Of a stretch of 5,495 nucleotides of DNA, positions 188 to 4,855 are shown piece after piece (positions within the stretch are counted from its first letter, which is position 1; the number at the start of each line of letters is the position of its first letter). A model generated the notes under the pieces. The model worked only from the letters and a program-made list of their open reading frames with translations, did no database searches and was not told where the DNA came from. Origin of the DNA: a virus (lineage: Duplodnaviria > Heunggongvirae > Uroviricota > Caudoviricetes); IMG/VR virus record IMGVR_UViG_2713896775_000009. One strand, written 5' to 3'. The position numbers were made by a program, and so were the translations under genes.

Positions 188-664
188 TTATTCAAGCAGG
201 CTACGCAACATCCAGGCAGTTTTCTCATGTAACTGGATACGTTGTGTAAGCAGATCTGCTGTGGCTTCATCATTCGCATTATTAACGAGCGGGAACAGGG
301 AGCGTGCAGTTTTAACCACGGTCTCCTGGCCCTGGACAAGATTTTCAATCATGTTTTTTGCTGCCGGAATATCCTTATCTTCATTAACCGCTGTTAAACG
401 TGAAAATTCATGATATGTGCCGGGCGCGAAGCATCCGAGCGAGCGTATACGTTCAGCGATATCATCAACGGCAGTGGCCAGCTCATTGTATTGATTTTCA
501 AACATTAAATGTAAGCTGTTAAACATGGGGCCAGTTACATTCCAGTGATAGTAATGTGTTTTTATATACAGGGTATAGGTGTCAGCAAGAAGCCGGGACA
601 GGCCGTCTGCAATCTCCACCCGGGATGATTCAGCAATACCAATATCAATGATTTGTTTACTCAT
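188..664 (-). CDS. Dps-family (ferritin-like, DNA protection during starvation) protein, 158 aa; host gene
   Basis: ORF with ATG start and TAA stop, GAGG about 7 nt upstream. The translation aligns by eye to E. coli Dps across the four-helix core (HW motif, conserved His/Asp/Glu ferroxidase-type residues, DDxTADxLT near the C-terminus) but is clearly not the K-12 dps ortholog. Confidence 0.85.
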
Positions 665-3179: not shown

Positions 3180-3372
3180 TCTGCTTTTCCTGCATCAGGA
3201 GAAAGACAATCATGGCGGCGCGGATACTTCCGGTATCTTTATACGCGATATTCCCCTTCAATGGCACATACAAGAAGAGAGCCATCAACAGGAGTGATTG
3301 AGGAATCGACAACCAGCAACGCTTAATTATCTATAGTGTCGTATTTGCTTCATAAAATATGGCGAATAACAC

Positions 3373-3472: not shown

Positions 3473-4087
3473 TTATCTAAAAGTCTTTCCACTTTTAACA
3501 TCTAGGTATATTCTGTTCGACAACGTCATTCCTCCGCAATATGTGAAATAGATGTTTTCACCCTTATTGCTTGATGCCATCCACCCTCCGATTTCCTTAA
3601 AATCGCTTTCCGTGCAGACCCCTTCATTTATTAACTTCCTAGCTGCCGAAGAAAACTCTTTTTTGTATATACGGTAGTCATCAGATCCTTTGATTAAAGT
3701 ATCATCTCCGCTCGCATTTTCAGCAGGATCTGATGGCCTTTCACTGCTAAGATCACTAAATTTAACCCATTCTGAAAACTTGCCATTAACGATTCCATTT
3801 TTTCTTGTGCAGGATTTATTACCTTCTTTAATATATTCGCTTTCCCCTCCAACACATGAGGCTGAATATGGCTCAGTTATACGAACCCATTCACCTTTTT
3901 TTTCTAGAAAATCTACGCCTTCCCTGAAAAATAGTTTCCCAGCCACTCCACATTTACTTGAAGGGCAGGTATGTCTTTCCGTTCGATCAACAACAACCCA
4001 TAGTTTTGATTCATTTTTTGCCATTGCCGATGGTATTTGAGATGAGACAATTAACGTAAGCCCTAAAATTAGTATTGATTTTTTCAT
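3473..4087 (-). CDS. Secreted/periplasmic protein with N-terminal signal peptide, 204 aa (cargo gene C), function unknown
   Basis: ORF with ATG start and AAAGGAA SD, TAA stop. N-terminus MKKSILILGLTLIVSSQIPSAMA-KNE is a classic Sec signal (basic n-region, hydrophobic core, AxA cleavage motif). Six Cys in the mature part. Visibly AT-rich. Confidence 0.75.
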   Translation of the reverse strand: MKKSILILGLTLIVSSQIPSAMAKNESKLWVVVDRTERHTCPSSKCGVAGKLFFREGVDFLEKKGEWVRITEPYSASCVGGESEYIKEGNKSCTRKNGIVNGKFSEWVKFSDLSSERPSDPAENASGDDTLIKGSDDYRIYKKEFSSAARKLINEGVCTESDFKEIGGWMASSNKGENIYFTYCGGMTLSNRIYLDVKSGKTFR

Positions 4088-4385
4088 TGTAATTTCCTTT
4101 TACTTTTTACAAAGCGTTTAATCATGGCTGATTATCTCTAAGTGTAGTAACAGCCTTGTGCGAAACATGTTACCAAATCGCCATTTCAGTGTATCCGCAG
4201 TTAGGCTGCCACTTCAAGGATTCCTAATTACATGGTACGTAAGCGTAAAATCCCGTTGGTTGGCGGGTAATAACTCTGATCAAATCTCCCTTGTCTTTTG
4301 CTCTTACGTATGCAGCTCTTGTGTATTCAACCCAGGCCTCCAGTTCAGCAATACGCTTACTTCCATCCGAGATAACACCTTCTAC

Positions 4386-4637
4386 TCACGCTGCTCGTTG
4401 AGTTTTGATTTTTGCTGTCTCCAGCTCAACACGCAGTTTCCCCACCGTTAGCGCAATATCCTCGTTCTCCTGGTCGCGGCGTTTGATGTATTGCTGGTTT
4501 CTTTCCCGTTCATCCAGCAGTGTCAGCACAATCGATGGTGTTACCAGCTCATGGAAAAGGTCCGCGTCAAATCCCCAGTTGTCAGGCATTGCCTGCTCTG
4601 CCGCTTCACGCAGTGCCTGAGAGTGAATTACGCTCAC
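4386..4637 (-). CDS. ea22: Ea22-like protein, N-terminal 83 codons ending at an in-frame TGA (truncated or chimeric)
   Basis: GTG start overlapping the orf73 stop (GTGA), with AGAGAGG SD. Translation MSVIHSQALREAAEQAMPDNWGFDADLFHELVTPSIVLTLLDERERNQQYIKRRDQENEDIALTVGKLRVELETAK... matches the lambda Ea22 N-terminus as I recall it. The same frame continues open past the TGA to 4227. Confidence 0.75.
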   Translation of the reverse strand: MSVIHSQALREAAEQAMPDNWGFDADLFHELVTPSIVLTLLDERERNQQYIKRRDQENEDIALTVGKLRVELETAKIKTQRAA

Positions 4638-4855
4638 TTCGAACCTCTCTGTTTACTGATAAGCTCCAGATCTTCCTGGCAACTTGCACAAGTCCGACAA
4701 CCCTGAACGGCCAGGCGTCTTAGCTCATCTATGGGATCGCCACACTCACAACAATGAGTGGCAGATACAGCCTGGTGGTTCAGGCGGCGCATTTTTATTG
4801 CTGTGTTGCGCTGTAATTCTTCAATTTCTGATGCTGAATCAATGATGTCTGCCAT
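4634..4855 (-). CDS. orf73: TraR/DksA-family C4 zinc-finger protein, 73 aa (lambda orf73)
   Basis: Translation MADIIDSASEIEELQRNTAIKMRRLNHQAVSATHCCECGDPIDELRRLAVQGCRTCASCQEDLELISKQRGSK carries the CxxC-x17-CxxC TraR-type motif and lies between ea22 and the orf61 region, as in lambda. Confidence 0.9.
   Translation of the reverse strand: MADIIDSASEIEELQRNTAIKMRRLNHQAVSATHCCECGDPIDELRRLAVQGCRTCASCQEDLELISKQRGSK

What the first reader, a model, noticed from the sequence alone, without database searches (positions are those of the whole stretch)
4224..4637. ea22 homologue is chimeric and interrupted by an in-frame TGA
The first ~75 codons match the lambda Ea22 N-terminus. Around the segment encoding ...ETAKIKTQRAA the frame ends at TGA (4386-4388), yet the same frame stays open for 53 further codons (VEGVISDGSKRIAELEAWVEYTRAAYVRAKDKGDLIRVITRQPTGFYAYVPCN, stop at 4224-4226). 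The first part of that tail (GVISDGSKRIA.LE) still matches lambda Ea22; the remainder does not. Compared with the lambda sequence as I recall it, this looks like a +1 and a -4 indel that together restore frame but capture a stop, plus a recombination junction near 4335-4345. It is either a recently inactivated gene, a sequencing artefact, or a truncated N-domain-only Ea22.
Basis: partly seen in the sequence, partly recalled or inferred. Interest (0 to 1): 0.5.

Follow-up and report, generated by a model that had tools for sequence, protein, structure and literature searches.

The report
Decayed mosaic ea22 gene remnant
This is a broken copy of the lambda-type phage gene ea22: its normal end was swapped for a scrap of another phage gene and it was then cut short by two small indels, a common state already flagged as a pseudogene in public E. 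coli genomes.

Summary
On the minus strand an 83-codon ORF (4637..4386, GTG start, TGA stop) matches lambda Ea22 residues 1-75. The same frame stays open for 53 more codons, to TAG at 4224-4226. Against lambda there is a +1 A (A-run 4409-4413) and a 4-base loss (TTAC, between 4383 and 4382). Homology to lambda ends at about 4338/4339, which is the Ead_Ea22 domain / C-terminal domain boundary.

It is not a sequencing artefact. The identical DNA is in phage Chlobot, in about 107 records of complete E. coli genomes and in 30 of 32 IMG/VR contigs. The exact 83-aa product is on at least 1000 contigs.

The 37-codon tail is not an Ea22 C-terminal domain. It holds a 29-residue internal fragment of an unrelated phage protein family (phrog_21749/20174) and always travels with a downstream 204-aa secreted-protein gene.

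Intact fusions (138-183 aa) occur only on single metagenome or draft contigs. A second lineage is cut by TAG codons at the junction, and a -4-only allele also exists.

Verdict: a recently and repeatedly inactivated mosaic remnant of a dispensable gene. RefSeq already calls it a frameshifted pseudogene. It is ordinary and of low interest.

The parts
4386..4637 (-). Truncated ea22 ORF: GTG start, 75 native Ea22 codons, 8 out-of-frame codons (IKTQRAA after K), then TGA at 4386-4388.
   Evidence: Pfam Ead_Ea22 PF13935 scores 74.8 bits, matching profile positions 2-110 of 139. PGAP annotates the same 252 bases as 'ead/Ea22-like family protein; frameshifted; incomplete; missing C-terminus'.
4409..4413 (-). 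A5 homopolymer carrying the +1 insertion (A4 in lambda and in intact alleles).
   Evidence: Alignments; coordinates.
4382..4383 (-). Site of the 4-base deletion (TTAC of ...GAGTATTACGAAGG... missing). It is also the point where the upstream haplotype switches relative to intact fusion alleles.
   Evidence: The -4-only allele P0132 is on 3 metagenome contigs; its DNA was inspected on one of them.
4338..4385 (-). 16 codons (VEGVISDGSKRIAELE) of the ea22 coiled-coil. They are back in the original frame but lie behind the TGA, so they are not translated.
4224..4337 (-). Foreign 37-codon tail (AWVEYTRAAYVRAKDKGDLIRVITRQPTGFYAYVPCN) plus its TAG stop. About 4254-4337 is an in-frame internal fragment of an EaA-like phage protein family.
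   Evidence: DNA match of 86-90% to SSU5-like phage-plasmids. Protein match WVECTRAAYVRAKDKGELTRV in the PhiR41_1 284-aa protein. phrog_21749 positions 137-165 of 208, E 3.4e-8, and phrog_20174 positions 150-178 of 284, E 7.9e-8.
4088..4223 (-). Spacer between the tail and the next gene. 4118-4233 is about 80% identical to a non-coding stretch of 3.1-kb small plasmids. No promoter-like or terminator-like site on this strand, and no Rfam match.
3473..4087 (-). 204-aa ORF with a signal-peptide-like N-terminus (phrog_8310, function unknown). It is always found 137 nt downstream of the tail, and is the cargo that came in with the tail.
   Evidence: The same arrangement is seen in L011, L012 (a non-lambda backbone), L013, L016 and L019.
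4634..4855 (-). orf73-type TraR/DksA zinc-finger gene. Its TGA overlaps the ea22 GTG (GTGA at 4634-4637), as in lambda.

Best explanation
This is a mosaic, recently inactivated ea22 allele in a lambda-like (pro)phage.

Step 1 (shown): the conserved N-terminal/coiled-coil Ead_Ea22 module is joined to foreign DNA exactly at the known module boundary (after lambda E101, where the C-terminal domain begins at S102). In place of an Ea22 C-terminal domain and ea8.5 there is a cassette. It consists of a 37-codon remnant, which includes a 29-residue internal fragment of an EaA-like protein, then a spacer, then a 204-aa secreted-protein gene.

Step 2 (shown): the fusion ORF (138-183 aa) exists intact in rare contigs, with several different N-terminal modules.

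Step 3 (shown for the changes, inferred for their order): a 4-base deletion created a TAG (84-aa allele). A 1-base homopolymer insertion 26 bases upstream then moved the stop to TGA (83 aa). The net -3 restores the frame only behind the stop, so the restoration has no consequence.

Step 4 (inferred): the gene is still transcribed from pL and is translationally coupled to orf73. The likely product is an 83-residue fragment that lacks a quarter of the coiled-coil and any C-terminal domain. It is most likely a loss-of-function allele of a dispensable pro-lysogenic gene, carried along by a successful prophage lineage.
For: - Indels and junction.
- The junction coincides with the end of Pfam Ead_Ea22 (lambda residues 2-101). 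It also coincides with the start of the NMR C-terminal-domain construct at S102 (PMC10834534).
- In an alignment of 19 family members, all are conserved up to KRIA[EK]LE and then diverge into several different C-terminal domains.
- Tail as a fragment of another family.
- AlphaFold2 of the intact 141-aa fusion gives one long helix (34-120). The last ~20 residues have pLDDT below 55, so the tail has no fold of its own.
- Intact fusion proteins: P0001, P0003, P0004, P0005 and P0136-P0144. All of them whose DNA was fetched (P0001, P0003, P0005) are followed by the same 204-aa gene.
- The window's tail and spacer are 100% identical to the intact allele on the P0001 contig (L013) from the -4 site onward. 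Upstream of that site the two differ at 8 sites.
- Independent knock-outs exist: a -4-only allele (P0132, three samples); a TAG at the junction plus a second TAG two codons later in the EC21Z-014 lineage, giving 100/103-aa products on 211 or more contigs; and an extra A in a second A-run (P0125).
- The EC21Z-014 tail behind its stops has 6 non-synonymous and 2 synonymous changes (pN/pS 0.89).
- Census: the double indel is in about 107 records of complete E. coli genomes, with no single-indel and no intact fusion allele among 5,426 genomes. In IMG/VR, 30 of 32 contigs carry the double indel, 2 carry the TAG type and none is intact.
- The same allele is in the deposited phage isolate Chlobot.
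- Ea22 and the exo-xis region are dispensable, and Ea22 is pro-lysogenic (PMC7093339, PMC10834534).
- PGAP already marks the locus as a pseudogene.
Against: - Both common truncations leave the first 75-100 residues open, and the start context is intact. A selected 'N-module-only' product is therefore not excluded.
- The N-terminal 75 codons show pN/pS of 0.26 against lambda. Most of that divergence predates the truncation.
- Polymorphism inside the double-indel lineage is too low to test for constraint. One search found 3 non-synonymous changes and 1 synonymous change in the ORF.
- The intact fusion alleles are each on a single short-read or metagenome contig. Some could be assembly chimeras formed across the repeated coiled-coil sequence. 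P0003 and P0005 carry SNP combinations of their own, which argues that they are real.
- The order of the two indels is inferred, not observed.
Confidence: 0.8

Rival explanations
1. A functional N-module-only Ea22. On this reading the 83-aa product (and the 100/103-aa products of the other lineage) is a selected short form. It would retain the N-terminal segment and part of the coiled-coil and act on its own, or act through mixed oligomers with full-length Ea22 from co-resident lambdoid prophages.
For: - Two independent lineages end the protein after the N-module rather than destroying its start.
- The products are very common: at least 1000 contigs for the 83-aa form and 211 for the 103-aa form.
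- The GTGA overlap with orf73 is kept.
- E. coli genomes that have ea22-like sequence hold a median of 2 and up to 8 copies, so partners would be available.
- The full-length protein is a tetramer, and the coiled-coil or N-terminal region is thought to mediate this (PMC10834534, PMC8614690).
Against: - The 83-aa form loses about 26 of the roughly 101 residues of the conserved module, including the invariant block NEQREYYEGVISDGSKRIA.
- Some copies decay further: a frameshift at codon ~27 in L041, and deletions from bet or exo into the remnant in L044 and L052.
- High frequency can be explained by clonal spread of one prophage. 14 of 35 loci are identical over 556 bases.
- No signal of constraint could be measured.
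Confidence: 0.12
2. Recoding. On this reading the TGA is read through, or a ribosomal frameshift in the A-rich stretch joins the frames, so that a 137-aa fusion protein is made.
For: - The frame is open for 53 codons behind the TGA.
- The insertion lies in an A-run, GCAAAAATCAAAAC.
- One 887-base metagenome contig has TTA in place of TGA, giving an open 137-aa ORF (P0002).
Against: - All three frames are closed within about 20 codons of the site. The lambda frame hits GAG TAG at the deletion and the third frame hits TAA (sequence).
- Sister alleles use different stops at different places (TAG after -4 only; TAG/TAG at the junction), so no downstream frame is conserved as coding.
- No Rfam element was found.
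- The apparent Trp at the TGA in P0061 is a gene-caller artefact. The contig reads TGA there and has a second TGA further upstream.
- The open frame is explained by the recency of the lesion, since the tail is 100% identical to an intact allele.
Confidence: 0.02
3. Sequencing or assembly artefact: the TGA and the indels are homopolymer or assembly errors in this one record.
For: One of the two changes is in a homopolymer (A4 to A5). Other homopolymer variants at this locus, such as P0125 and L041, may well be errors.
Against: - The identical 801 bases occur in many complete E. coli genomes from different hosts, countries and laboratories, and in phage Chlobot.
- The double indel is in about 107 complete-genome records and in 30 IMG/VR contigs.
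- The exact product is on at least 1000 contigs.
- The 4-base deletion is not in a homopolymer.
Confidence: 0.01

Closest known systems
Lambda Ea22 (NP_040612, 182 aa; Pfam PF13935 / InterPro IPR025153 Ead_Ea22)
   Same: It holds the same position after orf73 in the exo-xis block and uses the same GTG start overlapping the orf73 stop. Over codons 1-75 there are 6 non-synonymous and 7 synonymous differences. The mosaic boundary after ...KRIA(K/E)LE is the same.
   Different: The coiled-coil is cut at residue 75 by a +1/-4 indel pair. There is no alpha/beta C-terminal domain (lambda residues 102-182) and no terminal R/K-G-E motif. ea8.5 is absent, and the region is replaced by a foreign cassette.
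Mosaic Ea22 variants of Stx phages (V1-V3; 933W ea22 split from L0065)
   Same: The published picture is a constant Ead_Ea22 N-terminal/coiled-coil module with exchangeable C-terminal parts. In 933W an insertion leaves the C-terminal part as a separate gene (PMC10834534; PMC8614690; PMC7093339). The window's junction is at that same exchange point.
   Different: Here the C-terminal part is not a folded domain. It is a 37-residue remnant built around a fragment of another gene, and the ORF is additionally knocked out upstream of the junction.
EaA-like proteins of SSU5-type phage-plasmids (phrog_20174 / phrog_21749, e.g. PhiR41_1 XSB42471, 284 aa)
   Same: 21 of the tail's residues align in frame with residues ~152-172 of this protein. 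The DNA identity is 86-90% over 69-79 bases.
   Different: Only 29 of 208-284 profile positions are present, from the middle of the protein. The rest of the family's sequence is absent, so this is a captured fragment and not a member.
RefSeq/PGAP pseudogene calls at this locus (e.g. DTO54_RS17820 in NZ_CP030939)
   Same: Identical sequence, annotated 'ead/Ea22-like family protein; frameshifted; incomplete; missing C-terminus'.
   Different: The annotation does not resolve the two indels, the origin of the tail, or the allele series described here.

Membership tests
Ead/Ea22-like family (Pfam PF13935, lambda Ea22 type) | Significant match to the Ead_Ea22 N-terminal/coiled-coil profile | tested here: met
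   The 83-aa ORF scores 74.8 bits (cut-off 27), E 1.3e-20, but covers only profile positions 2-110 of 139. The virtually repaired 138-aa sequence covers 2-139.
Ead/Ea22-like family (Pfam PF13935, lambda Ea22 type) | Genomic position: last gene of the conserved orf60a-orf63-orf61-orf73-ea22 block between exo and xis, with its start overlapping the orf73 stop | tested here: met
   The gene order matches lambda and the annotated relatives. The GTGA overlap is at 4634-4637.
Ead/Ea22-like family (Pfam PF13935, lambda Ea22 type) | Complete coiled-coil module through the invariant NEQREYYEGVI.DG.KRIA.LE block | tested here: not met
   Translation leaves the native frame after K76 and stops at TGA 4386-4388.
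Ead/Ea22-like family (Pfam PF13935, lambda Ea22 type) | A C-terminal domain following the coiled-coil, ending in the R/K-G-E motif (PMC7093339) | tested here: not met
   The translated ORF has none. Even the untranslated tail ends ...YVPCN, whereas most full-length relatives aligned end in IRIKGE, IKVKGE or SIKGD. AlphaFold2 gives no folded tail.
Ead/Ea22-like family (Pfam PF13935, lambda Ea22 type) | Tetrameric protein with pro-lysogenic activity | not testable with these tools
   This needs biochemistry and phage genetics. It is known only for lambda and Stx-phage proteins (PMC7093339, PMC10834534).
EaA-like phage proteins (phrog_21749 / phrog_20174) | Match over most of the family profile | tested here: not met
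   Only positions 137-165 of 208 (E 3.4e-8) and 150-178 of 284 (E 7.9e-8) are matched, by tail residues 104-132 of the intact fusion P0001. It is a fragment, not a member.
Programmed recoding site (stop read-through or ribosomal frameshift) | An alternative frame or read-through that yields a conserved longer product, preserved in related alleles, with a stimulatory element | tested here: not met
   All three frames close near the site. Related alleles carry other stops. There is no Rfam match in the window.

The most novel reading that the evidence does not exclude
The short N-module products (83 aa here, 100/103 aa in the sister lineage) might not be junk. They could be selected 'decoy' subunits that co-assemble through the shared coiled-coil with full-length Ea22 of co-resident or superinfecting lambdoid phages and poison their pro-lysogenic function. 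Alternatively, loss of Ea22 itself could be positively selected because it makes the prophage more readily inducible. Either would explain why truncated alleles outnumber intact fusion alleles so heavily: at least 1000 contigs against about 13 single contigs.
Probability: 0.06. Interest if true: 0.5.

Novelty: already known. Interest (0 to 1): 0.1.

Why it matters
It matters little beyond annotation hygiene. [quoted passage not shown] The conserved ea22 coiled-coil sequence serves as a recombination arm. Cargo (here a 204-aa secreted protein of unknown function) arrives with a scrap of its former neighbour fused in frame. The now domain-less ea22 remnant is then knocked out several times independently.

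In practice, the 83-, 84-, 100- and 103-aa 'ead/Ea22-like family proteins' in public databases should be read as truncated alleles. Metagenome-derived 'intact' versions need care, because one of them results from TGA being read as Trp.

If the short products turned out to be functional, they would give a handle on the still unknown mechanism of Ea22.

Tried and rejected
- **Sequencing artefact:** rejected, because many independent assemblies are identical.
- **Read-through or frameshifting:** rejected. All frames are closed, sister alleles have other stops, there is no RNA-family hit, and the 'W' in P0061 is a TGA translated by a gene caller.
- **Re-initiation of the tail as its own ORF:** no ATG, GTG or TTG occurs in that frame before a TTG 19 codons from the end.
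- **The tail as a genuine alternative Ea22 C-terminal domain:** rejected. It lacks the +GE motif, has no predicted fold, and matches the middle of another protein family.
- **Single-indel intermediates in complete E. coli genomes:** none found. The -4-only allele was found only in metagenome contigs.
- **An intact fusion allele in complete E. coli genomes or IMG/VR:** none found.
- **Other host species:** the junction pattern gave 0 hits in GTDB species representatives.
- **Own promoter, terminator or RNA element in the spacer:** nothing on the coding strand.
- **Defence-system models:** PADLOC gave no hit for the remnant and its neighbours, and NCBIfam gave none for the remnant or the phage genes tested.
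- **Antisense ORF 4158-4451**, annotated in phage Chlobot: no family match, judged spurious.
- **Selection test within the double-indel lineage:** too few polymorphisms to say anything.
- **Tong et al. 2020 (ACS Omega, PMC7271347)**, the paper with the Ea22 deletion constructs: not held, so it could not be read.

Full report
**What is in the sequence**

On the minus strand, an ORF starts with GTG at 4637. That GTG overlaps the TGA of the upstream TraR/DksA-type zinc-finger gene (orf73 type, 4634-4855). The ORF runs for 83 codons to TGA at 4388-4386. The same frame then continues for 53 codons (VEGVISDGSKRIAELEAWVEYTRAAYVRAKDKGDLIRVITRQPTGFYAYVPCN) to TAG at 4226-4224. From local base composition, a 53-codon open stretch has a probability of about 0.04. 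As shown below, it is open because it was coding until recently.

**Comparison with lambda**

The alignment with lambda ea22 (NC_001416 29847-30395) and with phage PhiR11_1 (coordinates) shows the following:
- Codons 1-75 are collinear, with 6 non-synonymous and 7 synonymous differences (pN/pS 0.26).
- There is one extra A in the run GCAAAATC, giving A5 at 4409-4413.
- Four bases (TTAC) are lost between 4383 and 4382.
- A further 16 codons of ea22 (EGVISDGSKRIAELE) are back in frame.
- All similarity to lambda ends at about 4339/4338.

Either indel alone truncates the protein. The +1 gives the same TGA, and the -4 gives GAG TAG. The net -3 therefore has no consequence for the product.

**Not an artefact**

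- The 801 bases around the locus are 100% identical in Escherichia phage Chlobot (PP925838, deposited as an isolate from puddle water). They are also identical in dozens of complete E. coli genomes from panda, pork, human, pigeon, crayfish, wastewater and other sources.
- A diagnostic query puts the double-indel allele in about 107 records, including E. coli ATCC 8739.
- 30 of 32 IMG/VR contigs that contain the junction carry it.
- The exact 83-aa product is recorded on at least 1000 contigs.
- PGAP annotates it as 'ead/Ea22-like family protein; frameshifted; incomplete; missing C-terminus'.

**Where the junction lies**

Pfam Ead_Ea22 (PF13935) covers lambda Ea22 residues 2-101. The published NMR construct of the C-terminal domain begins at S102 (PMC10834534). 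In an alignment of 19 family members, the sequence is invariant up to KRIA(E/K)LE and then splits into several unrelated C-terminal parts, most of which end in the R/K-G-E motif (the motif is described in PMC7093339). The window's junction is exactly at this known exchange point.

**What the tail is**

The 37-codon tail is not an Ea22 C-terminal domain.
- At the DNA level, 4256-4334 is 86-90% identical to a gene of SSU5-like phage-plasmids.
- In PhiR41_1 that gene encodes a 284-aa 'EaA protein'. Its residues WVECTRAAYVRAKDKGELTRV align in frame with the tail.
- Profile search places tail residues 104-132 of the intact fusion on positions 137-165 of 208 of phrog_21749 (E 3.4e-8). It also places them on positions 150-178 of 284 of phrog_20174 (E 7.9e-8). 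The tail is therefore a 29-residue piece from the middle of a larger protein.
- The tail lacks the +GE end.
- AlphaFold2 on the intact 141-aa fusion predicts one long helix (34-120, pLDDT above 90 for 41-100). The last ~20 residues fall below pLDDT 55.
- Further downstream, 4118-4233 resembles a non-coding stretch of 3.1-kb small plasmids at about 80% identity.
- The next gene (3473-4087) encodes a 204-aa protein with a signal-peptide-like N-terminus (phrog_8310). It has no Pfam, NCBIfam or PADLOC match.
- In every related contig examined, this gene sits 137 nt behind the tail. This includes a contig with an unrelated Prim-Pol backbone and a different Ea22 N-terminal module (L012). Tail, spacer and 204-aa gene therefore move as one cassette, attached to the end of the ea22 coiled-coil.

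**The allele series**

- **(a) Intact fusions.** They are 138, 141, 161 or 183 aa long, with at least three kinds of N-terminal module (P0001, P0003, P0004, P0005, P0136-P0144). Each is on a single metagenome, Logan or draft contig.
- **(b) The -4 deletion alone** (P0132, 84 aa, ...NEQRE then TAG), in three different samples.
- **(c) The window's +1/-4 allele** (83 aa).
- **(d) The window allele with one more A in the second A-run** (P0125, 93 aa).
- **(e) A separate lineage** (EC21Z-014 type) without indels. It has GAG to TAG at the junction and TGG to TAG two codons later. Its 100/103-aa products are common (P0094 on 211 contigs). Its tail has 6 non-synonymous and 2 synonymous changes relative to the window (pN/pS 0.89).
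- **(f) One 887-base contig with TGA changed to TTA** (P0002).
- **(g) P0061,** which only looks intact because a gene caller read two TGA codons as Trp.

Among 5,426 complete E. coli genomes, 128 carry the tail. None has an intact fusion, and none has a single indel. The junction pattern is absent from GTDB species representatives. Some copies are degraded further, by a frameshift near codon 27 or by deletions running from bet or exo into the remnant.

From the -4 site onward, the window is identical to the intact allele on the P0001 contig (L013) over about 330 bases. Upstream of that site the two differ at 8 sites. A crossover close to the deletion site is therefore likely, and the inactivation is recent.

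**Interpretation**

The best-supported reading (confidence about 0.8) has three parts:
- A cargo cassette replaced the Ea22 C-terminal domain and ea8.5 at the standard module boundary. This left an in-frame fusion of the Ead_Ea22 module to a gene scrap.
- The domain-less fusion was then knocked out repeatedly. In this lineage it was probably first by the 4-base deletion and then by a neutral homopolymer insertion.
- The gene is dispensable, and its loss is tolerated by a viable phage (Chlobot). This fits published work showing that the exo-xis region is non-essential and that Ea22 is an auxiliary pro-lysogenic factor (PMC7093339, PMC10834534). A split ea22 in phage 933W has also been described (PMC8614690).

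What remains inferred: that the 83-aa fragment is made (transcription from pL, coupling to orf73) and that it is inactive.

Rival readings:
- **A selected N-module-only protein or decoy subunit (about 0.12).** This cannot be excluded, because both common truncations spare the N-module and polymorphism is too low for a selection test.
- **Recoding (about 0.02).** All frames close near the site, sister alleles carry different stops, and no RNA element is present.
- **Artefact (about 0.01).**

**Verdict**

It is an ordinary decayed mosaic allele of a known accessory phage gene and is already flagged as a pseudogene in RefSeq. Novelty: already known. Interest: about 0.1.

Noticed in passing
window 188-664 (-) and 758-772; L015: A Dps-family gene lies directly beside the lambda-type int (827-1897), rather than ybhC at the classical lambda site. 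This junction occurs in 40 complete E. coli genomes, and several copies are on 145-454 kb plasmids (for example pECO-cbb3, where IS elements interrupt the prophage remnant). Elsewhere the same prophage type sits at ybhC. The lambda att core matches only with 3 mismatches, at 758-772.
   Followed up: partly
window 3473-4087 (-): This 204-aa ORF has a signal-peptide-like N-terminus (phrog_8310) and no Pfam, NCBIfam or PADLOC match. It is always linked 137 nt downstream of the 37-codon tail, including in a non-lambda Prim-Pol phage backbone (L012). It is a mobile cargo gene of unknown function.
   Followed up: partly
window 4118-4233: This stretch is about 80% identical to a mostly non-coding region of 3.1-5 kb small E. 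coli plasmids (for example pATCC25922_2, positions 61-175). The significance is unknown.
   Followed up: partly
window 4158-4451 (+): A 97-aa antisense ORF overlaps the ea22 remnant. The Chlobot record annotates a 94-codon version of it as a CDS (CDS0046). It has no PHROG match and is probably a spurious call.
   Followed up: partly
window about 3212-3319 (-): RefSeq annotates a short 'DNA repair protein' pseudogene fragment here (incomplete, missing C-terminus). The Chlobot record calls the region 'UmuD-like protein'. PhiR41_1 has a umuD gene near its EaA-like gene. This looks like another gene scrap in the same mosaic region.
   Followed up: no
L010 (contig of P0061), L009 (contig of P0002): The public metagenome protein P0061 was produced by translating two TGA codons as Trp, so it only appears to be an intact 182-aa Ea22. 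A single 887-base contig (P0002) really does carry TTA instead of TGA.
   Followed up: yes
L044 6071-6667, L052 5017-5442: Two IMG/VR prophage contigs have deletions that join the end of bet (L044) or the middle of exo (L052) directly to the inside of the ea22 remnant. The deletions remove the whole orf60a-orf73 block.
   Followed up: partly
L005 229-1902 (phage-plasmid PhiR41_1): In this SSU5-like phage-plasmid, a gene annotated 'Ea22' (203 aa, not similar to the lambda N-module) lies two genes upstream of the EaA-like gene that donated the tail fragment. This hints at where the fusion cassette may have been assembled.
   Followed up: no
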